Positions 1,386 to 55,000 of a DNA stretch of 64,000 bases are shown piece by piece. Position numbers and translations under genes: made by a program. The DNA is taken from NCBI GenBank assembly GCA_000091205.1, contig AP006501.2; one strand, given 5' to 3'. This DNA comes from Cyanidioschyzon merolae (Eukaryota). The notes under the pieces were generated by a model. The model was not told the origin of the DNA. It made no database searches and saw nothing but the letters and a program-made list of their open reading frames with translations. How positions within the stretch are numbered: the stretch's first letter is position 1; each line of letters starts with the position of its first letter.

Positions 1386-3417
1386 AGCGCCCTTTGTTTC
1401 GGTTCAGTTATGGGCCAATTAGAAACCGTCTGAGCGCCCTCTGCTCCAGTCGATCTGAGCAACGCTGGGTCAGACAAAAATGTTTCTAAGCGTTGCAAAT
1501 GGCGTCGATGATCCAGTGCGCTGCGCGTCAGCGCGTGCTGAAGTGCTCGTTATTTGAGGACGAAAGCCATTCTGTGACTAGAGACATCTAAAGCCGTGGA
1601 ATAATAGAATAAAAGACTGAACGCCCGCCCTGTACCTGGCTAGCGATTTTTTGCGAACCCTTCCCAGGTGTACAGCCTGCACACTCGAATTCAAGCAGTG
1701 AGGGCGTAAGGATTACACCGTAGCTTAAGGTTGCGTTGTTTTCCTCTGGGACTTGCAAACACGACGCTCTGCCGCCGGAATTTGTTACGTTACCGAAATC
1801 GCCATTTTTCAGGACGCTTTAGAGCAAGTTTTCGTAAATCAATACATGCCATTATCCAACGCTTACGTTCAAGCCTCTACTTGTCAAATTGGACAGCCAG
1901 GAGTGTGCTCAAATCACCGACTTCCCGGGGTTTCGCTTATTTTGTTGCAAGGATGCTCGTTGGGCACAGCGACTTGCGCCGATGGATCGACGAGAACACG
2001 TAGTAGCCCGCGTCGTCCCTTGGCGACGTGCCCACAAGCTCATGCTGAAAGACCACCGCCCGATTCAGGTCCGATGATCGGTTCCGTTCCGAAGACAAAT
2101 CGTCCCCTATTGTGGACATCAGGGAAGCTCCATTCGAATGAAGCATCACAAGTCCCACGGAATATGCCTTAGAGGCTCCTGTCTGTTCTCTTTGCACGGA
2201 ATACGGTTATGGACTCGAACTTGAGCGATCGTAGCGATCGCTTCCTGTAGAGGACGCGTCGCAGCTTAGCACGAAATGAGTGAACATAAATCCAAATTTC
2301 TCGAACAAATCTCCAGCCTGGGTTTTCCGTCGGCCACTCGTTACACCACGGACAACGTTGCATTCCATACAGGCTCTGTCGAATGGAACATGGTGCGCTT
2401 GCACGTCGAGCGTACGACGTCCGCTCCTAGGGGATCGCCCAGAACAAGCTCGCAAACGTAGCGCACAGCGCGCAACGGAGTCGGGCACCCATGGGGGCAC
2501 TCTGCACCCGTCATGGGCATGTACCGGGTGGTGAGGGGAGCGTTCAGGTACCGTGGGGCGGCCCTTGGAGGAAGAGGAGGATGACGAGGAGCTCGTGTGC
2601 ATCTGAGGGAACGCCTGACCAGTCTCAAGTGTCACCCCTGCAGCGGGTACAGCGCGACCGTATGCCAAGACGATTCCCTTATCGCAAACGACGCGCATGT
2701 CGCAACCGCCGCCTGTGCATGAATTGTGTGGACAGCAGCCGAACACCTCAAGCTGACGCCCTCAGTGATATGGCAAAGCCGTTCTGTGTCTGTCCTGCGA
2801 TCGCACCGGCGCTTTAGGAGCCATCGCTGACGCTCAAGGCGGGCTCGGCGCACGAAAGAACTGGAAAACTGCACGGTGTCTTCGAAGGAAGCCCCGATGA
2901 GTGCAACTTGGAAGGAGGCGTAGCGATTGATGCTCCATCGTATGCTGGTATCAAGCGCACAATCGGGGATTCCCGGTCTGGGCAAACCCTCGATCAGAAA
3001 ACAGCTGGAGGCGGCGATATCGAGGACTGCAACGCTACGATCAATATCATTCAACTGCGTACAACCGCGTTGGACAGACAGGAGAGACCGGTATATGTAA
3101 AGCTGAAGATATGAAAGAGAAAAATGATCAGTAACAAGAAACTTGCAAAGGATGGTGTTGATGATATTGGAATAGGCCTAAACTTAAGAGTCTTTGCCCA
3201 AGTTCAGTGAGTGAATCCGTAATACTCTCATGTGACATGGGTGCGAAGAAGATCGGCCAACGTGCATCAACTGCCCGATGCGCGCCAAAATACGCGCGCG
3301 GACGCTGCTCGAACGCGCCTCGGTCGGCAATTTCCCGCGGCAAGCTTCTTCCCGCCTGGTACTCTCTGCCCTGCGTTGGCGTGTACCCAATATTCACAGA
3401 AGAGCCTTTGTGAAAAC

Positions 3418-13893: not shown

Positions 13894-13908
13894 CCGGGCC
13901 ACTTCGAT
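13894..13908. repeat. Target-site duplication (left) of the LINE
   Basis: Exact 15-mer ccgggccacttcgat, also present at 18982-18996, immediately abutting the element termini. Confidence 0.8.
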
Positions 13909-14935
13909 TTTTCTTTAATCACTGACGAAATGTTTACCTAAGCCAGCGTTCTCCGATTATGCGCATTTTTCGTTTCTTAATTTTTTTGTGTTTTTTGTCA
14001 GTGTGAGGTGGGATATCCATCAACCCCCTACCTCCATGTTACATTACCTATACTTCGTCTCGGATATTCTGGTCGTTTCATGCGTCCTATCGGGTGCCGA
14101 GCCTGCCGAAAGCGACAGCAATAGCGCCTATAGCGCCGGTGCAGTCGCTGCACGGAGACAGAACGGCGTTGCCGTACCACAAAGAGCGTCTGCTCGAGGT
14201 GTGCTTCACCCGACGTAGAATCGGGTCTCGTCGTCAGTTTGTGCTCGGATAGTCTGCAAATGCAGGCTTGCCTTCGCTGCAATACACGCTGTAGAAACTT
14301 GGCTGTTAGGATATATCCTGAGAGCCGCCTCTCTCCTTCGTGATCATGCATGGAATGCGTTGTTGTCGGTTGGCAATGCGGGTTTGTGCTTGACACCCAT
14401 CACAGTGGGTAGGCACAAAGAGCACTAAACCCGTGTGCTCATCCGATTCGTTGGACCTGCTGCCTAGAAGGTAGAGTTTGAGTTTATTGGCCACTCATGA
14501 GCGCTGAGGCTCCGTTAGCGCACCATCAGTTGCCAGTGCTACACTCAGAGTGAGTGTCCGGCCTTCGACAATCACGGTGATGTCCAGCTGCTGCTGTCCT
14601 CCAAGGAACTCGCTGCGCTCCTGCTTCGAGCGCGGGCACTGTAAGCTTAAATATGTCAGCGTCTCGGGGATTTCGTCTCGATAGCAGGTACAGTGTGACT
14701 CCCAGTGCGGTTCCAGTGTTCCCGTACGGAGTAGAGCCGGTGCTGGTAGCCAGAAGCCACCAACGCGGATTTTGGCGAGCCACTGGGTACCGCGAGCAAG
14801 TCCCGGGAATTCCAGCGCCTCCCACCAGTACTTGCTTGTGTATGCTAGGTTGTAGTTCCGGTATAGAGTCAAGCCGGCGTTACTGGCGCGACTGGTACCG
14901 TGTCTACCTTCCCATATTGGCGTTCGGACCGTTCG

Positions 14936-17202
14936 CTAGAGGCGGCGGGAGCCTTGTACATTTCTGGGGAACGATTGGAGCGCATTTTCGCGTAAGAGGC
15001 GCTTTAGCCAAATCTGCGCTGATTTCATCCAAGTTTTCTTGCGGTGCGTTGGGGTCTGCATGAAAATCCGACTCAAAGGGGTGCGCATAGTGGGCCCTTT
15101 GGCCCGTATACATGCCCAGCAGCCTGCTGCTATCGCTTCTATCGAGGCTATTTGGAGTTCAAGTCCGAGTGCCAGCGGGTTGGTTGCTCTGCGCTGCATT
15201 GAGCATCCAACAACAACAACGAGTCGCATTGCCCTGTTGGCAGCTGTCTGCAGACGCGAGGCATTTGTGTGCTTCATGCCGCACCATTCAGCACCCCAGG
15301 TCGAAGGCTGGATGATACACATCCTTAGTGCCCTCGTACGGATTGCTAAGGGGATAGAGGGGTCGGATGGGAATGGGCGTGCGATCGCTGTACGTCTATG
15401 CATCTTGGCGATCATCTCGTCGACGTGAGCCTTTTCGTCGAGCGTCGGCGTGAGACAGACCCCCAGGTAGCGATATTTTTCCACGATCGGAATTTCCTGA
15501 TTCTGCAACCGCCATGAGCGATTGCGAATGCTCTGTGAGTCTCCATGGATGACCATGGCGCCGCACTTCAATGCTCCTATGTTCATAACCCAGCGATCGG
15601 CCCAGGCGCTGACTTGTTGCATGCTAGCCGCAAGCGTTTCCGGGGCGGGTGCCAACAGCACGACGTCGTCGGCAAGTAGAAGGCCTGCGAGGCGGTTTCT
15701 ATGTGAGGGCTCCTCATCGGGCATCTCCACAGTCTATCCACGGCACCTCAAGTCCGTATTGTCTGCGGTTGTTCAGCAGATCGTTGATGAAGATGTTGAA
15801 AAGGCGCGGGGATGCGCGGTCGCCCTGTCGCAGTCCACGGCGGATTCTTATCGAAGGGGTTCTTGAGCAGTCGCCCAGTCGGGTGCACATCCACGAGTCT
15901 GCATAGAGCGCACGGAAGAACGCTAAGCACTTTCCGGAGACTCCGGCACGTTCCATCTTCAGAAATGGAGCCTCGTGCGGGACCGTTTCAAAGGCCTTTT
16001 GAAAGTCGATGAAGCATACGTAAGTTGGTTGTTGGCAGCTAATGGAGCGACGTTGCACCACTTCAATGAAGGTCAGGTCATGGCTCATGTACTCCTCGCG
16101 GCTCCGGAATCCAGCCTGTTCTGGGGCGAGGAATTTGCGTTCCTCGAGGCCCCTCTGAGTCCGGTTCGTGAGGTTGGCGCAAAGTAGCTTCATGATTTAC
16201 GGGATGAGGCGCATAGTCCGGTAGATATTCATGTCTGTGGGGTTCGGAGTCCTTTTTGAGGATCGGTACGACCTCGGCAGTCCTCCATACATCTGGGATG
16301 TACGCTTCTTCGAACATGCGTTGGATGAGCTCCAGAAGGCGCTTGCCTAAGATTGTGTCAGGTTCATCTGGTATCGATAGTGTCCCTGTTGTCTCGTCTT
16401 TTGGGGTCGCCAGTTTCATCCACTCCGTAGGGATACCGTCAAAGCCAGGTGTTTTGCGGTTGCATGACCTTAAGAGGGTCCGGACAGATTCAGGCCAGAA
16501 GATTGGGTCGTTCCATACCGGTACCGGGTCGAGGCGCGGTAGTTCTGCAGCATATTGGTGCCAATAGATTGGGTCTTGGCAGTGCCCAGTTGCGTCTTCA
16601 TGCAGCTCTGTCCCGTGGTCTATCCAGGCCTCATTCACTGAGGCACTCTCCGTCCTCAGCGCTTCCTTATAAACAATTGGTGTGAGCCCCAGGCACTTTC
16701 TTGGTGGGTCCAGTCTCGATCGAATGGAGCGCCATGTCTCATCTTCGTTGGTGCTCTCCAGCATAGATTTCGCCAGGGAGGCGATTCTGCGATTTCGATC
16801 CTCCTGTTTGTCTTCTCTGGAAAGTTTCTTCTTTCTTTTGATAGCTTCCTCATGTTGTGCCTGTAGCGCCGTTAGGACTGCCTTCGCTTCCTTGTCTCCG
16901 GCGTTGGCGCGTATGGCGGTGCGGTTGACGATCTTGTTGAGTCGGTGGCATCCATCAATCTGTGCTTTTTTACGTCGTTTCAGGTACTGAGGTTTGCAAC
17001 TGTTGCGTTCTGGTGCAAGCAGTCCCAGTTCTCTGGCAATCTTCTGATTCCCATCTACATACTCGCGTGCCAATTGGTCAAAAGATTTGTATGCACGGCT
17101 TTTCGGATCTTCAACGCTGTGAGCAGGTGCCTGGGTTTGGCGACGGCTTTCTTGAGTTCCAGCTGGGGTGCCCTCTCGGGGGATACCTTGTGATGAGCTC
17201 AT
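14936..17202 (-). pseudogene. LINE ORF2 reverse-transcriptase segments (three overlapping frames)
   Basis: RT motifs are spread over three ORFs (16078-17202, 15714-16193, 14936-15730) whose ends overlap in different frames. This is consistent with frameshift mutations or assembly indels. Confidence 0.8.
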
Positions 17203-17365
17203 TTGGGAGTTCTTTTTTCTATTCTTCTGTTTTTTTCTTGCTGGTCTTTTTCTTCTTCGGGCTCTTTCCTGAGCTGCTTTCTCTGGTTATTCTTCTGGTA
17301 CGTGGATCATGATGCCAGCGTGTCTATCCTTCCGTATCGCCTTGAGTCTCTTTTCCTATTGTAGA

Positions 17366-18148
17366 TCACTCTATTGTTGTCTCTTCTTCGTTAATGTACT
17401 GATAATTCGTTATCTTTTCTCGGAAGGCTGCAAGTGACTTGTTGGTTAGTATCCGGGCTTGGTATGTTGAGGGTGCAATTGCTGGTAACCCTCGCTGTGC
17501 GCTCTGAGTCGTGTCGGCTACTGGTTCAGCATTTTGGTTCCTCGGGCGCGGGTACCATCTGCAGTGGATGGGCCAGTGATCTGAGGCATCCCAAATTCGG
17601 TCAACGGCGGTATGTTGGAGTGCCGGGTCGCATCGGTCGCTTAAGATGTGGTCTATCGATGAGCGAAGCAAACGTTGGTCGGTAATGCGGTGCCACGTCA
17701 GGGGTGAACCTCTACACGGATTCACCGACAGCAATCCGCATCTCATTCGTTGTAGGTGTTGCCTAAGGTGGCCCGCCGACATGTTAAAATCTCCCATAAT
17801 TATCATCGGTTCCTCATTCCGTGTGCGGCGTTTCAATCGCTGGATGTTGGAGGCCAACTCTTTGAGTGCCTGTCGGCGCATCTCACAGGCGTGTGGTATA
17901 TAAATGGAGCCCACAAGCCAAGGTGCAGGCTGACCTGGAATTGTAACACTCACAAAGACCATCCATGGAGACGGGTTGCCGACCGCATAGCAAGTGAGGC
18001 GTCGATCGACAGTGAGCGCAACACCACGTGTGCGTAACGAAGTTGGCTTGTCCGTAGGGTCTACGTACGTTGGTTCAACCGTGTTGTAGCCTGGGATATG
18101 CAGACGATAATACGTCTTTGTGTTCTCTGAGTGTAGTGTCTCCTGCAA
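17366..18148 (-). pseudogene. LINE ORF2 endonuclease-domain segment (frame-separated from the RT segments)
   Basis: APE-like endonuclease motifs (see the LINE feature). Stop codons and frame changes separate it from the RT segment. Confidence 0.8.
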
Positions 18149-18981
18149 TGCCAGGATATGGACGTCTCAGCGTTCCAGGAAGTACCTTACGTCGTCTAGA
18201 ATCGAGGCTACCCCCAAAAATTTTCCATGATGCGAAACCTATCGAGTCGTAGCGCGTAAGGGAATAGGAATAGCGCTGCGGTACTCGAGAGATACGTTGT
18301 CGATTGAGATGCACCCTCCACGGCGTGTGAGAACGCACATGCCACCATTGCCTCCTGCATTCCAGTCGTTCAGTGAGTGTCTGCCGCAGCGCTAGCGTAG
18401 AATCAGATGTACATTAGTCAAAGTCGATTCGAATGCGACCTTTATCTTGCCGGACGCGTGAAGCTCCCCTCAATCACTGGGGATACGCTATGAACCACCC
18501 TGTCAGCGGCTTCGTATCCGCTCCCCAAATACATAGGCGGGCAAGTCGCTTATTCCAGCTTCGATCGCGAACATACTGCCAGCCGTCTTCCAAAGTATCC
18601 GCCGAAATTGTTCCCAAAGTTGAGGTAGGTACCCAATGTAGGAGGTAAACCGGAGCCCGAGTTTAAGGATCGATCCAAGATTTGCGCCCGAACCTGCAGC
18701 GTTGATTCGGGAGGGGCGGATAACTGCTCAGAATTTTCGTCAGCTTTTTCTGCTGCTGCTGCCTCCGCCCCTCCGTTCGTTGCGGTCAAGGTCCCTGGCG
18801 TGGGCTTCCTTCGCCGTCGCCCAAGCACCCCGTGTTTACCCACTTTCAGAGCTTCTCCGGAAAAACTAGACCTCTTAAGCAGGCATGGTGTGTGGGTCTT
18901 TAAGATAGTTGTTCTTTAATAAATAGTTTGCGACTAGTTTGTTTTGTTGTTTTTTATGTACGTTACGATTTTTTTTTCATT

Positions 18982-18996
18982 CCGGGCCACTTCGAT
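18982..18996. repeat. Target-site duplication (right) of the LINE
   Basis: Exact 15-mer ccgggccacttcgat, matching 13894-13908. Confidence 0.8.
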
Positions 18997-19189
18997 CTCA
19001 AGCTATTCACCGCATCGAGGTTGAAACAAAATTCAGCTGGAAAAATATAATGCTGTAGGTGTTGCAGCCTTTTTGGCGTCCCGTCTTACGCAGCAGACTC
19101 TAGGTTGTCATAGGCTTTCGGAGGCACTCGCAGAACGAGCGTCATCTCGGTAGACAAATCAGTCTCAACTCCTCAATTTCTAGACGTGC

Positions 19190-20041: not shown

Positions 20042-20908
20042 ATGACGCACTCCACATTGAGAAAGAGACAGCTCATTGTATTCGCCTTCCATGTTCGCCG
20101 CGCCCCTCAGTTGGAAGCGATGAAGCACGGAAGCCTTCAGTGGCATCTACTTTATGGCGATTGTCAGTGAAATTGCTCAGCAGAGTTCGCCCTCGCTGTG
20201 CTGCTGTTCGTACTGGAGGCGTATACACTACCCACGAACCATATCCATGATAGCATCACTGTTTGCGTTGATCGATCATTTAGCGCATTGCAGGACTGGC
20301 ATCTCGTACTGACTAACATGCTACTGGTCCGTCTCGCACAGCGCAGCGTGAGAAAAATTCATGTCATAATGCGGGCACCTTCGGCGCCATTATGCCGCCG
20401 CCTTGTGCATTTTTGAGTACGCGCTGCATAGAATGTGAAGCGGTGCGAGCGACAGCTGGTTGAGGAAATATGCAGGGCTTTGTTCCGATCACTTTAAAGG
20501 CGACTGCAACAAAACAGAGCTCTGCATTATGGCCAAAAAAAGCGATGATCCCCCCGCAAGAAATGTTACATTCGTGAAAATTGTTCACGTTCAGGCAGGA
20601 TTCTGCTGATGGAGCTCATACGCTTTGGCGTTTGAACGAATCGGCCAAAGTGTGAGCAATGCTTGTGGAGGTGGCGCTCTAATGCGACTAAGACTTCCTA
20701 CGATGCACCGGAGGCCAGCTCTTTAACATTCAAAAACATAATCACTCTCACATCTTGACGGTTCTCCGAGAGCGTTGTGCTTTGCGCATGAGGTTTCCTG
20801 CAAGTCGCGATTATTACTACGGAATGGGTGAATCCACGAAACGAACGCTAGAGAAGTTGTGCTGGCAACACCACGAATACACAGTTTCGAAAAATGTTAA
20901 CACCAGTC

Positions 20909-22456: not shown

Positions 22457-24629
22457 TTATATTCGGTTGTTGTACGAGATCAAAGCTGGGCTCTGTGCGT
22501 TCAGTTAGAGCTGACTGAATAAGTGCCTCTGCTGAGCGAAATATGCCACTGCCGTTGCAGACTCCGCGTGCAGTTCGTCCATTCGCAAATGCGTGTGAGT
22601 GTGCGTACAATGCGTACGTGCGTGTGTGCATCGCCCACAGCGACGAGCGCCAGCCGTACGAGCGCTTTGGGCCTGCGCGCCATTGCTGCGCCATTCGGTG
22701 GCTGGCTCATGATCGCCGCCGTGCGTGCAGACCTTGAGCGCACCCGCGTCGGAATAAATTGGAGAGAGGCCACGCTCCCAACTCTGGCGTAAAGAATAGA
22801 GAGTGAATCTCTTTATCAAAAAGAAGCGCATTTTCAAGCTTTTTTATGAATTCTTGATTTTTTCTCTTTTCTGTCTTGGAAAACACCGGGCTCTTTTTCC
22901 CATCTAGCTCTGTTGTCAGCAGTCGAGGGGTGTTGATGACAGCGTTCGAGTCCCAATTTTAAGGCTTTCTGATGTTGTCGACGCCGTACATTCGCAGACG
23001 GCTGTTGCGATCTAAGAGAGATCGCCATTTCGATTTCTTCGTATACGGCCTCAATGCGCCATCTGCAGCTGTGATTCTTGGTTATTTTGTGGTGTTCACG
23101 TACGTCAACTACACCTTATCTTCCTCGGGCCGCTCTGCGGCGAGATAACGTTTGCGATGTCATTCAGTGTGTGCCCCCGAGGGTAACGGCGGTTCGCCTC
23201 GATGACCTCCTCCGTATCCGCACCCGACGCCGACCTCCAGCATCACAGTCATCTTCCGGGAAATCCCACGATGGCTAAGCTGTCCGCTGGACACGCAAGC
23301 ACGCGCACCTCCATTCTTTGGAGGATTTGTGGAAAACGATTTTCTCTATGATGAAAAGAGAATCGAAAGGGAAACCCGGGTTGAGAAGCAGTCAGGATTT
23401 TTTGACAAAAGTATGCTGCATTCGTGCAAAGCGGTGATGCAATCACCGCTCGAAGCGGTCGATGCGATGAATCAAGTCCGAGCCCAAGACTCTTTCCCCG
23501 ACACACTTTAGAGATGGGAGCAAATGCGAGCATATCCCGTAAGAGGTATGACGCTCCAATGGAATGCAGTTAGGTCGATATCCATAAAATAGTAGGATTT
23601 AGGGTTCGAAAAGAAGCTTTTATTCTTCTCCTGAGATGTTCAGTGAGGTTTCGGCACGAGCATGTGATGATGTCGTCAAGCTTTCCCCTCATCTATCCAG
23701 GGTGCGACTTGTTCCGCGTACGAGCCTTCTTAAAAAAGACAGATCGAAAACATGAAGAATGCGTGATTTGCGCACGCAGAACGCAAGGGATGGTAATGAG
23801 CGGAGACTTGTTCGAATGAATTGGATAAGAATTTCAGTCATTTTACGAACCCTGCTTCGAAGGCGTCGAGAATCATCTTGATTTTCGGTAAGGTTATGAA
23901 TTCCAGCCGAAAAAGGCAAAGAAGCGACGAAGGAATGAGAAGCGAGAATCCTTAAGTTACGCATGAATGAATAGCCCTTCTTGCTGCACTTCGAATATCG
24001 ACACCGTATATCTGAGGAAAAGTTCCAAAGAGAAGTCAAGAGGGAGCAGTTCTGTTCTCCGTTTTGGTCTGATACAATTGTAAGAGCGGTGCTTGGCGAT
24101 TTCTTCGACACGACGTCGCCGAGTCCCGAGCAAGTGCCCGCTCCGCCAGAGGCACTGGTGGTTGTGTGCGCCAAACTCGACTCTTCTCGACGGACAATTC
24201 ACTGATTCTTTGGGCGTTTGCTTCCTTCAATACGCTTTTGAGGAGGCAGTATCAAACGCCCACTCCACCAGATGCATTCTGAGTTGATTGAAGAAACCTC
24301 GACTCGTCTCCAACAGTACTTTTCGGACTGCCGGGCTATCGACACATTTTCCAGAGGCATCCACTCATACTGGCATGACGCCCCAGCCGCATGCTGGCGA
24401 AGGAAATGAATGGATTTTTTCTCTGCATCTTAATCCACTAGCGCCTGTTCCCTGGGGGACCAAGACTGTAGCAGAAGGCGAAAAATTGGCCAGTGTAAAG
24501 ACTCTATTAGGTTTCCGGACAATGATCATGCAGTTAAAAAATTGCCTCGCCTTCCAGAGCACGTCTGTTGTGTACAAATTTTGTAAGCAGTTTTGGAAAC
24601 GGCTAGGGCTCACGGAAACGTTTCAGCTC

Positions 24630-26838
24630 AACCGCTCGTATATCCGCAGCAAAATCGGATAGTATATCAGCACGATCTTTCTCCAACTGCCAGGGAATCC
24701 AAATCACAGCGTATATATGAGGGTGCAAAAGTCTCACTCGATTGCTGATCCATATCGTACCAGTGCATAGCTCCAGTCGGGAATCCAGAGCCCTCTCTCG
24801 CCGCCACTGATTCTTTTCATCGCAAGCCTTCTGCGTTCCAGTACCATGGCGCCGCGAAGGTCGAACCGATTACTACCTCGAGCGCTCGCTTCATGCAAAA
24901 CCGATGGACGCTCCGGAAGCACGAGACGTTTCCGGGTGCTCGTTGAGACGCCCAAGTCTCCGCGCAGAATGTGCTTGCACGCGTGGCTGCTCGGGGAATC
25001 ACGCCGTTGCCAGCCGCTCACCTGCACCCTCGTCGCTACCTGACGATGCCCCGCTTCCCGCACACCACGTCGTGCATCAGGTTCCGTTTCACATTCATCT
25101 TCTCTACCCGTTTCAGCGTGCACACATTCTTGTGATGCGTATACGTCGTTTTGAACTCATCAACGGGAGCACGTACTGCATCGATTCCTGCACTCGGTGT
25201 GCGCTCTCGCGCAACGAACACGGGTACGTGCTTTGCGCGCAGCAATACGTCGAGCGCCTTCGTCCTCCACCAAACGATGCGACACGTCTGTCGATGCTTT
25301 GTCCAACTGACTGACCACGTAGGCGATTGCACGCCAGTTCGACCTATACAACCGAAACCGTTGGCGGCCCCAGCGCGGTTCGCTGTGCCCCTGCCCCAAG
25401 ATCGTCCGCATGTGCCGCATGGTCGCTAAGGCGCACCCCGGAGCAAGCGTGCAGGGCATCCACTTCAGCTCTGCATCCTGGGGACTGCCTCGACCGCGAA
25501 TGAGCTGTTGGGCAATCCCGCCCGTTTGGCGAAAAGTAGGCGACCACACGATTTCCATGCTGCTGCTACTGCTGATCCTTTCGGAATACTCGCGTGTTCC
25601 TGGTGTGCGAACATCGATGATCCCTGTTAGGGCGCCCGTGTCCAGGTCTGCACGCTTCTCTGAATGAAGTCTCATTGAGAGCGACGAGCACTCGTCCGTC
25701 CCGTAGTAACCGCTCGCTTTTCATGATGTAATCGATCGCGGGTGTGCGTATGAGAGTGTGCGCGTCTCGTTCAACGTACGACGGTCTCACGGAGCAACGT
25801 GCTTTTGCGTCGTCCACCCGTGCCTCTTCATTACCGTCGGTATCGACGGTACAGAATCTTCATATCGTGTGGTTTTTTCTCTGCTTTTTCTGAACGGAAC
25901 TGTGGAGTGGAACGGATTGAAAACGAGCAAGGCTTGTAGGTGGCGTCTGGTACGTTCTCGTTTTGGAGCGCAGTTCTAGGAACAGGCACTACGAGACAGC
26001 TGATTCATGCACTTTATCGGATTGCGTTGCCTTCAGTTAAGAATGACGGCGGTTTGCGCAAGCAAGCCATAAAAAGCTCAAAACGTTTCGCGACTTTCCC
26101 CCGAATCTATAGTACACAATTGCTTGGTTGAACACCTGCGAGAAAAGCAATCGAAACAAAAGCGCGCCCTCGAACAGTTGTTCCAGAATCCACTGCTCTA
26201 AGTTTATAGTCGGTACAACGAGCAGCGGTTCACGACCATGATAGGTACATAGACACCCACTCGCAGACGCCTCACTCTCTCGTCTGACCGGCCGCCTGCT
26301 ATCAGTTCCAGATTCTGCATGTATACCTCGAGCCTGAGAGGCTGCCTCACAAGACGGGCTCGCGCCAGCGCCTCGGGTATCCTCTTCAGCACCGCACATC
26401 GTTTGGTATAGATGGCGGCGTTCACGTCTCGATTCACGAACTCCTTGCGTGCATTGACGCTGGTGGAGCTCAACATTGCAAGAATTCCAAGTACTCGCGC
26501 CCCCTGCGCCACAACAGTCTCGTCATTGTCACGTCTAGCAAACACCTTTTATCGTCTGTGTCCCCTATTCTTCTTTTTTTCCTCGTAACTTGCTTGTCTT
26601 CGCTCGATGATCGGCGATGAGAGGATTTTTTGCGTTTTCTTCGGGCAGCCAGGGATGACGGTCCTCCAGGATCCTCGGCTTTTACGTGCATACCTTCCCC
26701 TTGAATACTGTATTTCTTCAAGATGAACGCGCTTCGAATGAATCTGCGGTAAACCGCGAAGAGGCCGTAAAGGACTCGCACCTGCGGTGGAACATAATAG
26801 AGGTAGCAGACTGTTAGAGACACTCGGGACTGTGCCAG
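24630..26838. repeat. Inverted-repeat arm A' (inverted copy of 6833-9020)
   Basis: See arm A. The A' end at 26838 lies only ~40 bp from the start of B' at 26880. Confidence 0.85.
26260..26450 (-). repeat. ~200-bp dispersed core repeat, copy 3 of 4 (inside arm A')
   Basis: Reverse complement of the 7205-7420 core, as part of the A/A' duplication. Confidence 0.7.
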
Positions 26839-26879
26839 ATCATATGCTTTCAATCCAATTTCGTTTCAGCCTCTGCTGC

Positions 26880-28270
26880 AGCGTATAGCAAGATATCGAA
26901 ATCACTATTGAATGAGCCCTGTAGATCGTAGTCGAATTGCCTGTAGGATATATTCTTTACTGAGCAATACACGGAATACTGCATTCCTTCTGCAGGTCAG
27001 TCATACCACAGTTTCAGATGGTTCAGGAACACTGGAAGGAGAGAAGCATGTACACTACAGGCAAAAACCAATATTCTCGGAGATTGCCTGCTGTCGGTGG
27101 TAGAAAACGTCCCGTTAATCGCCTTACGGAAAGCAAAAAGGACGATGAAAGTCTCCACGGGCGTCTCGGTTACTCAGCAGTTTGTTCGTGTAGTCTTGAA
27201 AACACTGGGATACGCTTACAAGAAAGTCAAAGTTCAATGAACGTCAGCTTCCACCGAAATCGCAACGACAGAATTCTCGGAACGCTGCGATCGATATGAA
27301 GCACAGAGACATTGGTATGTTTTTCAAATCGATGAAACCTTCTTCGGAAAAACGATCGGGGCATGGATGGGTATTCGCTGACTGGGGGCCCGATGCATGC
27401 ATGAAGGTACTCGAAGAGAACGATGATATCTTCATCAGTTCAAGCTGGAATGGATTCATTTGATGGCCTCAGTTTCGCAAGTGAAGAAGGCTCATACAAC
27501 AGCGCCACCAAGTTTGTGGAATCATTAAAGACTTTACTCCTGACGTCTGGCGACGTCCTTCCATTGATCAACATGGTATTTAACAATTCGACTTGGTTTC
27601 GAGCATTTGCGGATCCTGCCTGGGTACAGTAGCTTTTCATCCCTCCGTAATTGCCGTGATTCAACGTCTTCGAATGACCGTTTTGGATCGTGAAACGTAA
27701 TGATCCCTCCGCTGGCCGAATCGCTGAAGCTTTCAGCACACGACGACACACTGGGGCACATTTCGTCTCTCCTACGCAAGAGCTTCACGCTTGAGGAATT
27801 TTCTCACCTGAGTTCATAAAGAATTGTGCTCATTTGAAAATATGTAAAACCCAGGAGACGAGCTGGGGGTGTACAGTTTTGAGGTGGAAATGGAAAAAGA
27901 GCCAGCGGAGCGTTTTAGCGATAGCGAAGCATGGGGAGCTGACGGAGCACCGAATGTCACGTAGGGCACGAGTTCGAGGACTACTTTCTCTGGTGATTTC
28001 CTCCAGCGGCAATTTACGCACTGAGTTCGTGAGCCGAAACTTCAACGTCGCTATCAATATCAGGAGATATGCGGTGCTGAAGACGAGCCCCCAAGACCTG
28101 ACGAAATCTACCTTGGTATTGTAGCCTCTCAGGCTCGAAGTCTACATGGAAAAAGTGACACCATTATCAGGAAGCCGATCACGTTAAGGCGGAGAGGTGT
28201 TTGTGCATAGGCATTAATTTAACGTAAACGGCGGGAATTTTTTTGTTCCATTGAACGTGTATGCGTGTGC
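26880..28270. repeat. Repeat element B' (inverted copy of 12440-13893)
   Basis: See element B. Terminal homology: tttttgttccattgaacg (about 28245) matches tttttgttccaatgacg in the reverse complement of about 12460. Confidence 0.6.
28021..28200 (+). repeat. ~200-bp dispersed core repeat, copy 4 of 4 (terminal part of element B')
   Basis: Aligns with 7205-7420 (gagttcgtgagccgaaac..gcggtgctgaagacgag..ctcaggctcgaagtctacatgg). Confidence 0.7.
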
Positions 28271-48300: not shown

Positions 48301-51300
48301 TCACTCATCCTCGTTGTCGGCGTCTTCCACCTCATGTTCAAGAAGACTACCGGCCATAGACAAGATCTCTACCTCGCCTGACTTGAGCCGTGCTAGAGTC
48401 TGGGCATATGACGACATGGCATGGGTCTCGTTGCCGCCAAGATGGTCTCGTACCCGACAGGTCTCAAGAACGTCCTCGAATGCAAGCAAACGCGTTCGCA
48501 ATCGTTCAATCTGATACTTGTCTTGCACAAGGATTTCAAAGAATAGTATCGCAGTATCTCTGGATATGCGGCTGGATGATCCCACAATCGAGATGCCCTC
48601 ACTCGAGATCGTACCTGCAATCCGTGACAGTAGACCAGGGCCATCGCGCGCCATCAGCGCGAGGCGCACTGGATAGCGTGAACGCGGCGCGCACCAGCGC
48701 ACGCTCACGCATGCCTCGGGATCACCGCGGAGGCTCGCGAGGCAGCGCACGCAGCGGAGGCGATGGACTTCAAAGGCGGCGGGTACTCCGTGGCTTGCCG
48801 GCCGAATTCGGATCGCAACAATACGATCGCCTGGTACGGGATTGCAGCAGCACGCAGCGAAACACTCTGGGTGAATGTCCTCACACGCTTCAGCTGCATT
48901 ACTTGCACCACTGGACAAGGTTCGACTTGAAGACGAATCCGTTCCAGGTTGACGCTCACGTTCAGGAAGTGAGCGTTCTAGGTATCGCTCAGCGTCCTTT
49001 TCTGGAAATTCGGCTGCTTCGAGGGTCTGGTAATTGGCTGGCGGATCGCGAGCACTCGACCTCAAGTAAAGAGGACTTGTTTCCTCTTCCGCAAATGTTC
49101 CATCGATTTCTGTATCAGGGACGCCAGTGTCAGCTGCAGCGTGCACATCGTTGTTACTTGCTGCAGTTGTATGCAGCTCTTCAAGAGTGCGGATGCGATC
49201 TGGATCAATATCCCGACAAAAATGGCATAAAATTTTTGCGGCAGCTGTTAATCCTCCGAATCGATGCACATAAACGAGCAGATCTTCCAAACATCGGATT
49301 TCAAGGGCTCGGGCCGGTGCGCAAACTTTCGGCACCAGTATAGGGAGGGCTGATTCCAAGACCAAGTCATTTGGAATCTCGTTCTCGTCCACACAAAGAT
49401 GCCGCGCTGCTGCTTGAAGAAGCTCTCTACCTCGCTCGCATGCCTCCTTCACTTCACGAGATCGAAGGAATCGGCGAATCTTCTGCTTGGCAGTGCGTGA
49501 ACGCGCGTAACGAAGCCACTCGCGGCTAGGCCCAGGTGCAGCCGGCGATGTAATGATTTTGATGCTATCCGCATTGCTGAGCTCGTAATCGAGCGGCACA
49601 AACCGGCCGGCTACACGAGCCCCGATCATTTGATTTCCTACGTCTGAGTGAATATGGTAGGCAGCATCTACGACAGTAGAGCCTTTCGGAAGATCCAAAA
49701 TGTAATTTTTCGGCGTGAATACGTAGACTCGATTCCCCAGGAGATCCTTCTGAACCGCATCAACACAGTCCTTGGAGTTCCCCGAATATTCCTTGCAGTA
49801 CTCCAGAATGTTGCGGAGCCAGTCTTCTGAGTGTTTTTGCCAGTGGTTTTGCGGTGAATGCAGCGTCCCATTTCCTGCCGCTTGTTGTCCACTTCGGAGC
49901 CTCGTTTCTGGCCAGAATTCCATAGCAATACCATATTCTGCTTGAACGTGCATGCTATCTGTGAAGATCTGCACCTCCACGGGGTGGAATCCACCCTTCG
50001 GACCCAGAAGCACCAGCGTGTGTAAACTCTGGTAGCCATTCGGTTTCGGATACGCAACAAAATCCTTCACATGCCCTGGAAATGGTCGGAAAAGCGAATG
50101 TACACGCCCCAGGATATGATAGCAGATATTTCTACCGAATGAAGGATCATAGTGCTCCTCGCTGAGTCCGACAATAATTTGCACAGTAGCGAGGTCATGG
50201 ATATTTTCCAGCCGTGCACCCTGCAAAATTCTTTGGTAGATGGAGAACAGATTTTTGAGAGCTACCTTCGTGCAGATCTCCCGCACCAAGGGTTTCAAGA
50301 TAGAGTCGTTCTCCAGAGAATCCACTAGAGCGTCCGCCGCGTGAGCCAGATTCATCTCAAGGTTCGTGCGATCTTTGTATATTCGCACTTGTTCGGAAAG
50401 TAGGCCATACTCTTTTGGATGCAAAAAGCGGAACGATAAGTCTTCCAACTCGGACGCTATTCGAGCCAGCCCGAGACGATGTGCGAGCGGCACAAATATC
50501 CCCAAGGTCTCCTGCGCGATGCTCTGCTGCTTGAGTGGTGGCATATGCTCCAAAGTTCGCATATTATGGAGTCGATCTGCCAGCTTCACGACTATAACCC
50601 GAATATCCTCCGCCATAGAGACAAACATGCGACGGATATACTCTGCCTGTTGCTCCTCTTTGCTGGATTTCCGAAAGTTCGGAGCTGCTCCGTTCGGCGA
50701 GTGCTCGGTCACAGTGCCGTTCGCGACTGTAGCCCTAATCTCGAAGTTCTGGTCAAGAGTTGAGGCGTCTATTTCTTCGCCTCCAGCCAGGTCATGATCG
50801 AGCCGTAAGCCCTTGAACTTGCTCCGAACTGCTGCAGCTGCGGCAGTTGCTGCCGCGGCTGCCGCTGATGCCGCTGCAGCAATCATGGAGACCGGAGCCA
50901 TGAGTGCACCATTGGCACCGCTAACAGCGTTGCTCGGTTTCATCTTTCTGGCTATTTTGGAGACTTTGGTTTCCGATTCAACAATATTTCGAACAACATG
51001 GCCAAAAAGACTTTCAACAGCATCAAGAGTGAGGTCTGTGTCCTCGACGGTATCGTGTAAGAGCCCAGCGATGAGTGTGTCAACGTCCATCCGAAGTTCC
51101 GCGAGAAGAAGAGCAACTGCGACGGGATGTGTGATGAAGGGCTCACCAGACCGACGAAGCTGCCCACTGTGCGCCGCAAATGCCACTTCGAGGGCACGGT
51201 GCAGACTCTCTATGGCCTCCTTGTCAAGGTAGTTCGCCTTTTCCCGTAAGCTGTGGAAAGACTGTGTAAACAACTCCCTCTCCGCGTGTGTAAGCGTCCG

Positions 51301-51540
51301 AGGCTTGCTCTCTGGAGAAACACCATCTAAGCTGCCTTTCGTGATCTGAAAGTCACTACCCGAGAGCAACAGGTCCTTCAAGACTTTTCGACAACGGGGA
51401 CGACGAATAGTTGGTCTCTCGAAGCGTCTTTGATTCGGAGACCAAAAGAGCGTCTTCGTTGTACTCAGATTGGTTGCGTAATTGTTGCTCTCGCGATAGC
51501 TCCTGGGAGCGTACACTGAAATGAAAGAAGGGCACTCCAT
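48301..51540 (-). CDS. RelA/SpoT homologue (RSH) (p)ppGpp synthetase/hydrolase, plant/algal-type
   Basis: 1079 aa. HD hydrolase motif (FITHPVAVALLLAELRMD…LLHDTVEDTDLT). Synthetase domain (VHSLFRPFPGHVKDFVAYPKPNGYQSLHTLVLLGPKGGFHPVEVQIFTDSMHVQAEYGIAMEFW). TGS domain (VYVFTPKNYILDLPKGSTVVDAAYHIHSDVGNQMIGARV) and a C-terminal ACT-like region. An alanine tract interrupts the linker. Confidence 0.9.
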   Translation of the reverse strand: MECPSFISVYAPRSYRESNNYATNLSTTKTLFWSPNQRRFERPTIRRPRCRKVLKDLLLSGSDFQITKGSLDGVSPESKPRTLTHAERELFTQSFHSLREKANYLDKEAIESLHRALEVAFAAHSGQLRRSGEPFITHPVAVALLLAELRMDVDTLIAGLLHDTVEDTDLTLDAVESLFGHVVRNIVESETKVSKIARKMKPSNAVSGANGALMAPVSMIAAAASAAAAAATAAAAAVRSKFKGLRLDHDLAGGEEIDASTLDQNFEIRATVANGTVTEHSPNGAAPNFRKSSKEEQQAEYIRRMFVSMAEDIRVIVVKLADRLHNMRTLEHMPPLKQQSIAQETLGIFVPLAHRLGLARIASELEDLSFRFLHPKEYGLLSEQVRIYKDRTNLEMNLAHAADALVDSLENDSILKPLVREICTKVALKNLFSIYQRILQGARLENIHDLATVQIIVGLSEEHYDPSFGRNICYHILGRVHSLFRPFPGHVKDFVAYPKPNGYQSLHTLVLLGPKGGFHPVEVQIFTDSMHVQAEYGIAMEFWPETRLRSGQQAAGNGTLHSPQNHWQKHSEDWLRNILEYCKEYSGNSKDCVDAVQKDLLGNRVYVFTPKNYILDLPKGSTVVDAAYHIHSDVGNQMIGARVAGRFVPLDYELSNADSIKIITSPAAPGPSREWLRYARSRTAKQKIRRFLRSREVKEACERGRELLQAAARHLCVDENEIPNDLVLESALPILVPKVCAPARALEIRCLEDLLVYVHRFGGLTAAAKILCHFCRDIDPDRIRTLEELHTTAASNNDVHAAADTGVPDTEIDGTFAEEETSPLYLRSSARDPPANYQTLEAAEFPEKDAERYLERSLPERERQPGTDSSSSRTLSSGASNAAEACEDIHPECFAACCCNPVPGDRIVAIRIRPASHGVPAAFEVHRLRCVRCLASLRGDPEACVSVRWCAPRSRYPVRLALMARDGPGLLSRIAGTISSEGISIVGSSSRISRDTAILFFEILVQDKYQIERLRTRLLAFEDVLETCRVRDHLGGNETHAMSSYAQTLARLKSGEVEILSMAGSLLEHEVEDADNEDE
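50800..50900 (-). repeat. GCN-codon (poly-alanine) simple repeat within the RSH coding sequence
   Basis: gctgcagctgcggcagttgctgccgcggctgccgctgatgccgctgcagc encodes AAASAAAAAATAAAAAV in the RSH frame. Confidence 0.8.
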
Positions 51541-51760
51541 AACTCAGGCCAGCAGCCCTGTCGAGAGCCAAACGTCAGGTCTTCCCAAGCACAGCCTGTC
51601 CCAGAGGTAGCGTCCTCCAAAGGAGAACAACAGTTGGATTCGAGCTCCGTCCGAGACCGATTAACTCTCTAGATTGTACATACCGCTGCGAACGGCGCTA
51701 TCATGGATTCCGTCACGCGCGTCTGGGCCGCGATGGAAGCGAATTTCGCGAGGGCGCGAT

Positions 51761-52031
51761 TTTTCTTTAATCATTGACGAAATGTTTACCTGGGCCAGCG
51801 TTCTCCGATTATGCGCATTTTTCTTTTCTTACTTTTTTTGTGTTATTTTTCAGTGCGCGGTGAAGTATCCACCAAATGCCCTACCTCCAAGTTACATCAC
51901 CTATACTTATTCTCGGATATTCTGGTCGTTTCATACGTCCTATCGTGTGCCGAGCCTGCGGCATGCGACCGCAATGGCGCCAATAGCGCCGGTGCAGTCG
52001 CTGCACGGAGACAGAACGGCGTTGGCGAACT
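51761..52031 (-). mobile_element. 5'-truncated copy (271 bp) of the 3' end of the LINE at 13909-18981
   Basis: Collinear with 13909-14190 in the same orientation, at about 85-90% identity (ttttctttaatcattgacgaaatgtttacc…ggtgcagtcgctgcacggagacagaacggcgtt). Flanked by an exact 13-bp direct repeat gcgagggcgcgat at 51748-51760 and 52032-52044. Confidence 0.75.
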
Positions 52032-55000
52032 GCGAGGGCGCGATGGGGACTTCCTGTACTTCACCTCAACTGTATTCCATCCTATGTGAATGTTACCATA
52101 TGCTTTTTCGCAGTTTTATAGCATATGCGTTCGAATCGCGTACATTTGAAGGGACAAAAAAACCAAGGGACGCTATGGACATGGAATTCGGGGATCCTGG
52201 AGGCCCGGTGTCGCTGGCTGCCGGAGAAAAGGGAAAATAGTAACAAGCCCAGGGAACGGTAGAAGACGAAGAAGCAGAAGCAGAAGGCCAGACGTCAGAA
52301 GCGACTCGAAAAATGACGCAACTACGAGAATTTCGTGGAAGCCTTTCTTCGACGCAATATCAAGGATCCCTAAAAGCAAAAGAAGCAAGAGGCCAACAGA
52401 AACAGTGTCGCGTCCCACTTCATGAGTGTTTGTAACGCTTCCCTAGAAAAGATGCATTTTGTGAGGGACATGTACCACGACGTAGCGGATACCAAAACAG
52501 TCAAAGTTCCGGAAGAATTTTTCACGGTTACCTCCATCTGGCACCTGATGGCTGCCACAGGGGAAATGTCGGGGAGGAACGATCCAGTGCACGCCTTCTA
52601 CGAAAACTATCCCTTCTGCAGCATCAACGGTACTCGATGCAGGGCTGACTCGGGTATTTACACTTACGAGGCGATAGAGTATCTCACGAACCTGGGGAAC
52701 CAAACAATCGTAAACCACGAACGGTTCATCAAAGGCTGCATCTTTGCGCTCTACTCGGCCTGTCTCATAGGGTGGGTGACCATCATCGATAGCTCGACTA
52801 GAGATCGCCAGTATGAATAAGAGATCGAATTCTTCGACGAGGAGACATCACACAGGAGCACTACTGAAGGTTCTGTGATCCGTGCGGCTATTAAAGAGCA
52901 ACGTGGGGCCTCGAGGCTAGCGGATCAGCAGAAAACGTATCAGATATGAAAAAACATGAAAAGGAATTTTATCCCCTATCCTGCGCTATGTCGTATTTTT
53001 GAACAGAGAACTCGAGCGCAGGGCCAAAACGGAGCAGGGTGTGGAAGAAAATGAGGAGTCGATGGGGCGGCGGACTGCGCCTTTGGGGAAGCGCTTCAAA
53101 ATCGTACTGTTATGCAACATCAAGTCATATTTTGTGAAAATCGACCCCAGAGTCCTTTACGGCACACTGAAGGAGGTAAGTTCGGATTTCGATGTAAGCA
53201 ACTTGGAATTTACGGGCGAAAACCTGGAGACTCATTGGAAGCACATCTTCGATTTCAAACGTCTCAAAATGAGCAAGAAAAAGGTATTCAAGGAGATGAT
53301 CGAAAGCGATGGAGTATCCATACGCGTTGACTACAGGTGCTTGAAGGTGGATCGTCCTGTTTTGTCCTCGATATCGCGGGTGACGAAGCGTGACGAAATG
53401 AATGATGCGGACCCTACGACGTAGGAGGTGCAGGCGAAGGACCTCGTCGCCGGCGTGGACCGTGGGAACACGAATATCATGACCATTGCTGTTTCCATGC
53501 ATGGGAAAAATGCAAGGGCTCCCATCGCACAGGTGCAGCAAATGGAGAGCATAACCTCTGGACTTGTGACGACGCGGTTAACGACTTTTGCAATGAAACC
53601 CGCAGCGTATGGCACATTTACCTGAGCGGTTATACTCAGACCAGTGGATTTTGGAGTACATGTGCCAGCAACCCATTTTGTTATTGTTTCTTTTGCTCCC
53701 AGGCATTCAAAGAAAGCAATGGATCCCTTAGATTCGATAATTGTGGAGAAGAGACCTCAAACTGTCACTTTTAGCCTGCGAGCAATGATCTGACTCGTTC
53801 AATTCGGTCATTCTGCCATCAGCAGGTGGATGGATCACCTTTATCGTCGTCTTTGACTTGAACTTCGTGCATGAAAGGCAAAACTTAACAAACTCCCTCA
53901 CATAGACAGAATCGGCATCGATCCGTTCCACTCCATACACTCTCGCAGAAATTCTGCCGAAGAACCCAAATCGTGTGGAGTCCCCAGTCCTTTGATGCGA
54001 GGGATGATGAAGAGACACGAATGGACGAAGGAAAAAGCATGCTTCTTTGGGAGTTAATTGCGTGTTTGACGGGCCATTACCGACTCTGTACCGATGTAGA
54101 AGGCTTTTTCCAGAAGCGATATGTTTCGGCCTCTTACGATGAGACCTCTTTCGGAAGAAATGCGAAAGATGTTGATGAATACTTCACGAAGAAGGACAAC
54201 AAATGTTGTTCGTAATGAAGAGACAAGCTAGAATAATGACGACATCAGCCCATGCGCAGATTCCATCGAGTGGTAGTACGCAGGTCGCCAAACCTAGGGG
54301 ATCCCTCAGCAACCCATGCATCCTCGGGGCGCTATGTGGCACCTCCATTGTATATTTTTCTTGATTTGAGATGAAGTTGCTTTCCATAACTCTCTAGCGA
54401 TCAAGGAATAAGCAGCTGAGATAAGCGTTGAGCTGCCCTACATATCGGTCCATTCTTGCATGCAAAATCCGGTCGAGTGCGTCCTCTCGATTGCTATACG
54501 ATATTTTCTCGGCCTCGAATTCATAGACGAGACGTTTGCGTCCGTAACAAAGCAGTTCTTCGATAGATCCTTCTTCAACAAGTAATTCTCTACCTTAACC
54601 AGCTTTCAAATGCCCTGTGGCTCTTCCGATCTTTCGGACAAGGGTGTGCAAAAGCGCGCTCTGGCAGTGGAAGTGCCCGCGGCGAAGAAGATGCAAGAAG
54701 GTCACGGAGCATAGTAGAGACACATCTGCATTGTGGTTAGCGTCCGTCCCGCCGTCCTTCTAGTGTATCCAAGTCCCCGGGAGAATAAGATTACAAATAT
54801 AGCTACCGGATCTATGCTACTCTGCTAAGAAAAAGAAAAGGCGAGGAAGCAGAAGAACAAGCGACCAGACAGAGAAAGATACTGTCTGAAAGAAGAGGAG
54901 GAATAGGAAGGGATAACAGTAGGACACGGATTCAATCTTAGAATACCTTTAAGGTCTCTCTGCTAAAAATTGCCAAGAGGATATTTTTCCAATCGTTGAG

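What the first reader, a model, noticed from the sequence alone, without database searches (positions are those of the whole stretch)
51748..52044. 5'-truncated daughter copy of the same LINE with its own 13-bp TSD
51761-52031 aligns with the 3' terminal ~280 bp of the LINE (13909-14190) in the same orientation. It starts at exactly the same 3' terminus (ttttctttaatca…). It is flanked by a perfect direct repeat gcgagggcgcgat (51748-51760 and 52032-52044). A sharp 5' truncation with fresh TSDs is the classic signature of target-primed reverse transcription. This shows that the 3' ~270 bp, including the region at 13988-14218 that the ORF track shows as a small ORF, is retrotransposon 3' UTR and not a host gene. 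It also shows that the family has been active at least twice in this 64-kb window.
Basis: seen in the sequence. Interest (0 to 1): 0.55.

Follow-up and report, generated by a model that had tools for sequence, protein, structure and literature searches.

The report
Truncated LINE tail copy, red alga

Summary
Window 51761-52031 matches the 3' end of the LINE at 13909-18981 at 89% identity, in the same orientation. It ends at the same terminus and is flanked by a perfect 13-bp direct repeat. Homology stops at the repeat.

The window is C. merolae 10D chromosome 19. The LINE lies on the minus strand. It is 5,073 bp long, encodes an APE endonuclease and a reverse transcriptase, is riddled with frameshifts, and has its own 15-bp duplication.

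The retrotransposition reading is supported. Among 23 independent short copies from C. merolae-complex metagenome contigs, the modal duplication is 13 bp and the target consensus is C|ATCG. Copy B fits both.

- A and B are about 11% diverged siblings, not parent and daughter.
- The perfect duplication does not prove a recent insertion.
- A third, older copy lies at 2746-3003.
- Ten independent copies start at exactly LINE nt 4783. B, which starts at nt ~4799-4805, may therefore be a slightly truncated copy of a discrete ~290-nt short form rather than a truncated full LINE.

This is an ordinary transposon feature of low interest. The target preference and the short form are modest additions.

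The parts
51761..52031 (-). Copy B: a 271-bp retrocopy of LINE nt ~4799/4805-5073 (3' UTR only). Its 3' terminus ...TGATTAAAGAAAAA lies at the left (51761).
   Evidence: 89% identity to 13909-14177/14185. Shares the terminus TGATTAAAGAAAA only with copy A among 113 loci.
51748..51760 (.). Target-site duplication of B, the copy next to the element's 3' end. It reads gcgagggcgcgat on +, which is ATCGCGCCCTCGC in element orientation.
   Evidence: Read directly. Scored 13/13 by the TSD finder.
52032..52044 (.). Target-site duplication of B, the copy next to the element's 5' end.
   Evidence: Read directly. It is preceded in element orientation by C, giving the family target C|ATCG.
13909..18981 (-). 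Copy A: a full-length but dead 5,073-bp non-LTR retrotransposon of the same subfamily.
   Evidence: Boundaries are set by the 15-bp TSD. Reading frames are broken into many pieces. The RT is 80-83% identical to C. merolae 'retroelement, alive' proteins.
13894..13908 (.). TSD of copy A (CCGGGCCACTTCGAT on +, ATCGAAGTGGCCCGG in element orientation), 3'-side copy.
   Evidence: Exact 15-mer repeat found by k-mer search.
18982..18996 (.). TSD of copy A, 5'-side copy.
   Evidence: Exact 15-mer repeat.
17366..18148 (-). APE-type endonuclease domain of copy A.
   Evidence: Pfam Exo_endo_phos at 5e-9 and Exo_endo_phos_2 at 3e-6.
14936..16193 (-). Reverse transcriptase domain of copy A, split over two frames.
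   Evidence: Pfam RVT_1 at 4e-12 and 2e-3. PDB matches to R2 and L1 ORF2p RT.
13909..14199 (-). The 291-nt 3' module of copy A (LINE nt 4783-5073). It corresponds to the recurrent short form and contains a covarying stem.
   Evidence: Nine independent metagenome copies plus window copy C start at nt 4783. Covariation is at alignment columns 55-62/82-89.
2746..3003 (+). Copy C: an older, ~75-78% identical copy of the whole short module. It starts at the canonical CCTCAAGC and lacks the internal A-rich ~27 nt. Its TSD is no longer recognisable.
   Evidence: BLAST hit 2743-2861. Full-length alignment.

Best explanation
Copy B is a dead-on-arrival retrocopy of the 3'-terminal ~270 nt (3' UTR) of the Cyanidioschyzon merolae APE-type non-LTR retrotransposon family. 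It belongs to the same subfamily as the degenerate full-length copy A.

Inferred mechanism, target-primed reverse transcription:
1. The element's endonuclease nicked the window's + strand at 5'-CGAT|G-3'. In element orientation this is the target C|ATCG.
2. The freed 3' OH primed reverse transcription from the short A-tail of a family RNA.
3. cDNA synthesis, or the template, ended about 270 nt in.
4. The second strand was cut 13 nt away, and fill-in produced the 13-bp duplication.

Shown here: the homology, the shared terminus, the TSD, the family-typical target and TSD length, and the APE and RT domains in the partner.

Inferred only: the order of nicks, and whether the template was a full LINE RNA or a short RNA.

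The copy is non-coding. It sits 208 bp upstream of the RelA/SpoT-homologue gene start and has no demonstrated function.
For: Homology and boundaries. Perfect 13-bp TSD.

The partner is a bona fide LINE with APE and RT and its own 15-bp TSD.

Organism and family are known. Exact protein matches to C. merolae 10D come. The genome paper reports 26 non-LTR class I elements (PMC1955436).

Family behaviour was taken from 112 metagenome loci that belong to the C. merolae species complex.
- 31 dereplicated short copies have many different 5' ends.
- 23 of them have clear TSDs with a mode of 13 bp.
- The target consensus is C(19/23)|A(20)T(16)C(18)G(18).
- 14 of 23 targets contain ATCG at the junction, against a background frequency of 0.55% (P ~ 2e-26).

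B's TSD is 13 bp and reads C|ATCG.... Among all loci, only A and B end in TGATTAAAGAAAAA, and A is B's nearest sampled relative.
Against: No empty-site allele was found. An exact 24-mer spanning the predicted empty site gave 0 hits. The nearest non-identical orthologues of the flanking gene are only 66-69% identical, too distant to align intergenic DNA.

The A-tail is only 5 nt.

The 5' junction cannot be placed more exactly than nt ~4794-4805.
Confidence: 0.9

Rival explanations
1. B was made by the same TPRT mechanism, but the template was not a full-length LINE RNA. It was a discrete ~290-nt non-autonomous RNA consisting only of LINE nt 4783-5073, a tail-only SINE-like short form. On this reading B is an almost complete copy that lost only its first 15-22 nt.
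For: Nine metagenome loci with unrelated flanks begin at exactly nt 4783 (CCTCGAGCCGAC), and in most of them the TSD abuts that base directly. Two more start at 4785 and 4786.

Window copy C also starts there.

These account for about a third of 32 independent short copies. A uniform spread would give ~0.15 per position.

Nt 4783 lies ~110-150 nt downstream of the ORF2 stop, so it is not a coding boundary.

The tail carries a stem with compensatory changes.
Against: - B itself does not start at 4783.
- Many other copies start at scattered positions from 4805 to 4997, as simple truncation predicts.
- No Pol III-type head, tRNA or known ribozyme was detected.
- The single-sequence fold is not unusually stable (z = -0.47).
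- A reverse-transcription stop or RNA-cleavage hotspot in full LINE RNA would give the same pile-up.
- B's closest relative is the LINE-attached tail A.
Confidence: 0.35
2. B is literally a daughter of the copy at 13909-18981. That copy was transcribed, and its RNA was reinserted 38 kb away.
For: A is B's closest sampled relative, and the two share a unique 3' terminus.
Against: A and B differ at about 11% of positions.

A is an inserted copy with its own TSD and has multiple frameshifts and stops.

The collection searched did not include the other ~25 class I elements of strain 10D. Look-ups of the two annotated 'alive' proteins failed. A closer source could therefore easily exist.
Confidence: 0.04
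3. B arose by DNA-level duplication, gene conversion or capture of a LINE fragment at a double-strand break, not by endonuclease-dependent retrotransposition.
For: Only the absence of a long poly(A) tail and the lack of an empty-site allele.
Against: Homology ends exactly at the LINE's own 3' terminus and at a TSD.

The flanks of A and B are unrelated.

The TSD length and the C|ATCG target are those of dozens of independent insertions. Break-capture events typically lack both.
Confidence: 0.02

Closest known systems
C. merolae class I (non-LTR) retroelements, annotated 'retroelement, alive' or dead (Matsuzaki 2004; Nozaki 2007, PMC1955436)
   Same: Same organism and same family. The RT of copy A is 80-83% identical to two annotated C. 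merolae retroelement proteins. The genome paper reports 26 such elements, 3 of them intact, all non-LTR.
   Different: Those 26 were counted by RT similarity. B and C carry no coding sequence, so they were probably not counted. I found no published description of the family's TSD length, target motif or short copies.
5'-truncated L1 insertions in mammals (TPRT, endonuclease-dependent)
   Same: - An APE and RT partner element.
- Variable 5' truncation.
- TSDs of about 13-15 bp.
- A copy that is dead on arrival.
- Possible microhomology at the 5' junction: CGCCCTC at the end of B's TSD equals family consensus nt 4794-4800.
   Different: The target is C|ATCG rather than TT|AAAA. The A-tail is only 5-9 nt. 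A conserved structured 3' UTR suggests tail recognition (the 'stringent' type) rather than poly(A) recognition, but that was not tested.
Non-autonomous partners that share a LINE's 3' tail: UnaSINE1/UnaL2-type SINEs, ingi/RIME, R2 SIDEs, and extremely truncated CR1 copies
   Same: Short elements that carry the LINE's 3' UTR and use its insertion machinery. There is a recurrent discrete 5' end at nt 4783. Internally deleted derivatives also exist (L075/L107, L092).
   Different: There is no tRNA, 7SL or 5S head, no LINE 5' segment and no detectable ribozyme. The short form is simply the last 290 nt of the UTR.
Galdieria LINE reverse transcriptases
   Same: These are the nearest named relatives outside Cyanidioschyzon, with 40-43% RT identity.
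   Different: They are only distantly related. The clade of this LINE was not determined, and no RNase H or zinc-knuckle domain was detected in copy A.

Membership tests
Non-LTR (LINE) retrotransposon insertion made by TPRT | Colinear homology to the 3' end of an autonomous LINE, ending at the same 3' terminus | tested here: met
   89% identity over ~270 bp, with both copies ending ...TGATTAAAGAAAAA.
Non-LTR (LINE) retrotransposon insertion made by TPRT | The partner element encodes an endonuclease and a reverse transcriptase | tested here: met
   Pfam Exo_endo_phos and RVT_1 hits on minus-strand ORFs of 13909-18981.
Non-LTR (LINE) retrotransposon insertion made by TPRT | A target-site duplication directly abutting both ends | tested here: met
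   Perfect 13-bp repeat. The family mode is 13 bp.
Non-LTR (LINE) retrotransposon insertion made by TPRT | The same target-site preference as other family members | tested here: met
   B's target is C|ATCG. The family consensus is C|ATCG in 14/23 independent copies, against a 0.55% background.
Non-LTR (LINE) retrotransposon insertion made by TPRT | An empty-site allele with a single copy of the TSD | tested here: inconclusive
   A 24-mer spanning the predicted empty site gave 0 metagenome hits. The two near-identical strains are both filled. More distant orthologues are too diverged.
Non-LTR (LINE) retrotransposon insertion made by TPRT | An RNA intermediate and endonuclease nicking at the target | not testable with these tools
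   This needs a retrotransposition or nicking assay.
SINE (Pol III-transcribed, tRNA/7SL/5S head plus LINE-derived tail) | A Pol III-type head derived from a small RNA | tested here: not met
   ARAGORN found no tRNA in the window. Rfam gave no tRNA, 7SL or 5S match on copy A's tail or on three short copies.
SINE (Pol III-transcribed, tRNA/7SL/5S head plus LINE-derived tail) | A discrete 5' end shared by independent copies | tested here: inconclusive
   This is met at family level: 9 loci plus window copy C start at nt 4783. B itself starts 15-22 nt further in.
SINE (Pol III-transcribed, tRNA/7SL/5S head plus LINE-derived tail) | A 3' tail shared with the partner LINE | tested here: met
   The whole short form equals LINE nt 4783-5073.
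Segmental or DNA-level duplication | Homology extending into the flanks on both sides | tested here: not met
   Alignment identity collapses outside 13905-14185 / 51757-52030.

The most novel reading that the evidence does not exclude
The C. merolae LINE family has two undescribed properties, and B exemplifies both.
1. Its endonuclease has an unusually specific 5-bp target, C|ATCG, with a fixed ~13-bp stagger.
2. It mobilises a discrete ~290-nt tail-only RNA with a precise 5' end at nt 4783, and possibly a second one at nt 4509. This RNA has no Pol III head. It would presumably be made by an internal promoter or by an unrecognised self-cleaving or processing site in the 3' UTR.

If so, tail-only copies outnumber the 26 annotated retroelements in one of the most transposon-poor free-living eukaryotes.
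Probability: 0.45. Interest if true: 0.45.

Novelty: new member of a known kind. Interest (0 to 1): 0.2.

Why it matters
For this window it matters little. It is a correct repeat annotation, and it removes a spurious small ORF (13988-14218) from consideration as a gene.

More broadly, C. merolae is used as a minimal-genome model with '0.7% transposons, 26 retroelements'. That count was based on RT similarity and misses coding-free tail copies such as B and C.

The family-level by-products are useful for annotating Cyanidiales genomes. These are the strong C|ATCG target preference, the 13-bp stagger and the recurrent 290-nt short form. They also give a testable handle on how this LINE's endonuclease and RT recognise target and template.

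B lies 208 bp upstream of the RelA/SpoT-homologue gene, and C lies upstream of PCNA. Promoter effects are therefore conceivable but were not tested.

Tried and rejected
- **Empty-site search.** An exact 24-mer (ATTTCGCGAGGGCGCGATGGGGAC) in metagenome contigs gave no hits.
- **Other 10D LINE copies.** Look-ups of the two annotated 'retroelement, alive' proteins returned nothing on record.
- **Empty site via the flanking RSH gene.** The nearest non-identical orthologues are 66-69% identical (Cyanidiococcus-like), so intergenic DNA is not alignable.
- **Ribozyme or small-RNA origin of the nt-4783 end.**
  - Rfam on copy A's tail returned only a chance miRNA hit at E = 6.9.
  - Rfam on three short copies returned nothing.
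  - ARAGORN found no tRNA.
  - I tried an HDV-like P1 pairing by eye, but the candidate 3' strand (CTCGG) is replaced by CACTAGG in many copies, so I dropped it.
- **Unusual thermodynamic stability of the tail.** z = -0.47, not significant.
- **RIP-like or C-to-T-biased decay between A and B.** Not seen: 12 transitions against 17 transversions.
- **Clade assignment of the LINE.** Pfam found only APE and RT domains, and PDB matches to R2 and L1 were similarly weak. The clade is left unassigned.
- **Whether the metagenome loci come from another species.** Rejected. Eight of eight host ORFs that could be looked up cluster at >=90% identity with C. merolae 10D proteins, and one is identical.

Full report
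**Observation**

Reading the window directly shows gcgagggcgcgat at 51748-51760 and again at 52032-52044. The match is 13/13, and the bases just outside differ. Between the two repeats, 51761-52031 aligns with 13909-14185 at 89% identity on the same strand. Outside 13905-14185 / 51757-52030 the alignment collapses. The refuting condition of homology extending into the flanks is therefore not met. Four extra matching bases (cgat) sit next to the shared terminus. They belong to two different target duplications and are explained below.

**What the partner is**

The long element lies on the minus strand. A k-mer search found an exact 15-bp repeat, CCGGGCCACTTCGAT, at 13894-13908 and 18982-18996. 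This delimits a 5,073-bp element at 13909-18981.

Minus-strand ORFs give Pfam hits to an APE-type endonuclease (17366-18148) and to reverse transcriptase (14936-16193). PDB sequence matches are to R2 and L1 ORF2p RTs. The coding region is broken into many frames, so this copy is dead.

In element orientation it starts AATGAAAAAAAAATCG... and ends ...GTCAGTGATTAAAGAAAAA.

**Organism and prior knowledge**

Two neighbouring ORFs are exact matches to C. merolae 10D proteins BAM82742 and BAM82743, on a 1,282,939-bp contig. That length is chromosome 19 (table in PMC11050394).

The RT is 80-83% identical to two C. merolae proteins annotated 'retroelement, alive'. It is 40-43% identical to Galdieria RTs.

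The 100%-complete genome paper reports 26 class I elements, all non-LTR and three of them intact, detected by RT similarity (PMC1955436). The family is therefore known. I found no description of its TSDs, target or short copies.

**Family behaviour from related sequences**

A conserved 27-mer from the tail retrieved 112 metagenome loci. Host ORFs on eight of these loci fall in >=90%-identity clusters with C. merolae 10D proteins from several chromosomes, and one is identical. The loci therefore represent the C. merolae species complex.

Some loci correspond to the window's own copies:
- L040 and L081 are the copy-B locus at 99.5% identity and carry the same insertion and TSD.
- L004, L022, L058 and L111 carry copy A.

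After dereplication by flanks there are 31 independent short copies. Twenty-three have clear TSDs, with lengths of 11-15 bp, a mode of 13, and two outliers of 25 and 27 bp.

Aligned at the TSD start, the upstream copy gives C at -1 (19/23), then A (20), T (16), C (18), G (18). ATCG occurs at the junction in 14 of 23 copies against a background frequency of 0.55% (binomial P ~ 2e-26).

Copy B (CCCC|ATCGCGCCCTCGC, 13 bp) and copy A (GAG|ATCGAAGTGGCCCGG, 15 bp) both fit. This explains the shared 'cgat'.

By inference, the first nick is on the strand that is + in the window, at 5'-CGAT|G-3'. The second nick is ~13 nt away.

**Relationship of A and B**

Among all 113 loci plus the window, only A and B end in TGATTAAAGAAAAA. 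Every other copy ends ...TGAAAAAAA or similar. A is also B's nearest sampled relative. They therefore belong to one subfamily.

They nevertheless differ at about 11% of sites, with no transition bias, and A is itself an old inserted copy. 'Daughter of that copy' is not supported. 'Fresh' is not shown either, since B is fixed in the near-identical strains sampled.

**Is B a truncated LINE or a near-complete short form?**

The 5' ends of short copies are scattered between nt 4805 and 4997 of the LINE, as simple truncation predicts. Nine loci with unrelated flanks, however, begin at exactly nt 4783 (CCTCGAGCCGAC), mostly with the TSD abutting. Two more begin at 4785 and 4786.

A third copy in the window itself, 2746-3003 on the + strand, also begins there. 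It is ~75-78% identical and lacks the internal A-rich stretch.

Three better-preserved copies place the ORF2 stop near nt 4630-4670, so nt 4783 is inside the 3' UTR. A second recurrent start at nt 4509 was seen in two independent loci, one with a 13-bp ATCG-type TSD.

I could not find a cause for the discrete end:
- There was no Rfam ribozyme or small-RNA match on copy A's tail or on three short copies.
- ARAGORN found no tRNA.
- The fold is not unusually stable.

An RNAalifold run on 15 diverse copies does show one stem (alignment columns 55-62/82-89) with compensatory changes in 3-5 sequences. That is consistent with a structured, RT-recognised tail, but those sequences are related, so the number of independent events is small.

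B starts at nt ~4799-4805, which is 15-22 nt inside the short-form start. The last 7 nt of its TSD (CGCCCTC) equal family consensus nt 4794-4800. The 5' junction may therefore have formed by microhomology, and it cannot be placed more precisely.

I rate 'short-form template' at about 0.35 and 'truncated longer RNA' as somewhat more likely. Either way the mechanism is TPRT.

**The small ORF**

The ORF at 13988-14218 (76 aa, GTG start) is antisense to the 3' UTR. In B the same frame runs out through the TSD into the flank. Independent copies carry 4-nt and other indels within it. It is not a conserved gene.

**Context**

B lies 208 bp upstream of the start of a 1,079-aa RelA/SpoT homologue at 48301-51540, minus strand. 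C lies between an RNA methyltransferase gene and PCNA. No functional consequence was tested.

**Verdict**

The feature is an ordinary coding-free copy of a known LINE family in a known genome, so interest is low.

The target motif, the 13-bp stagger and the recurrent 290-nt short form are modestly new family-level facts. They need a whole-genome census and RNA-end mapping to confirm.

Noticed in passing
window 2746-3003 (+): A third, older copy (C) of the LINE tail module, ~75-78% identical. It starts at the canonical short-form start CCTCAAGC, lacks the internal A-rich ~27 nt, and has a decayed TSD. It lies upstream of the PCNA gene (3232-4206).
   Followed up: yes
window 6824-9013 vs 24640-26828, and 12969-13875 vs 26928-27835: Two pairs of inverted repeats, 98.5-99% identical. 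The right-hand copies form one ~3.2-kb unit.

Metagenome contigs L022, L111 and L004 join window 38646->26928 directly to 13876->16051. L058 is collinear with the window. This suggests either an inversion polymorphism of 13876-26927 (which contains LINE A) mediated by the 909-bp repeats, or an assembly ambiguity.

The unit's size recalls the 3.2-kb dispersed repeats and the CMe-1A Fanzor elements described for C. merolae (PMC1955436, PMC3627910). No Fanzor ORF was detected here.
   Followed up: partly
window 52101-53449: A dispersed repeat, 67-69% identical to segments in at least 15 metagenome loci. LINE ends lie within 70-215 bp of its left edge in the window (copy B), L102/L054, L032/L045/L025, L094 and L001. 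This could be a preferred neighbourhood or a coincidence of two abundant families.
   Followed up: partly
window 12500-13894 and 26839-28252: Members of another dispersed family, 67-70% identical to many loci. LINE A's insertion site lies 19 bp beyond the end of the high-identity repeat.
   Followed up: no
L014, L033, L048, L105 (period ~150 bp); L061, L109, L019, L069, L070 (period ~116 bp): Short tandem arrays built from partial LINE-tail units (nt ~4917-5054 and ~4961-5054). These are satellite-like amplification of tail fragments.
   Followed up: no
L075/L107 (nt ~30-792 + 1567-2613 + 4779-5062); L092 13645-14796 (nt 86-682 + 4501-5063); L001/L112 (lack nt 793-1566): Internally deleted derivatives of the LINE. 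One deletion junction (2613 -> 4779) falls within 4 nt of the recurrent short-form start.
   Followed up: partly
L012 9535 and L032 1301 (LINE nt 4509): A second recurrent 5' end (TACCTTCTAGGCA) in two independent loci. One has a 13-bp ATCG-type TSD and is inserted right after another tail fragment.
   Followed up: partly
L092 2672-3182 vs L107 10293-9770: A 4783-start short copy and an internally deleted LINE share ~235 bp of 3' flank at 84% identity, but their 5' flanks are unrelated. This may be 3' transduction or a duplicated block.
   Followed up: partly
window 13909-14199 (-), alignment A4 columns 55-62/82-89: A stem in the LINE 3' UTR (around GCGAC.GCA...TGC.GTCGC) keeps pairing through double changes in 3-5 of 15 copies from different subfamilies. 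It is a possible RT-recognition structure.
   Followed up: partly
window 52032-52044 and L093 9348: Target sequence at the 5' junction resembles the element sequence just upstream of the truncation point. In B this is CGCCCTC. In L093 it is 11 nt, CGAGCGCACGC, against element CGAGCCGACGC. This hints at microhomology-mediated 5' joining.
   Followed up: no
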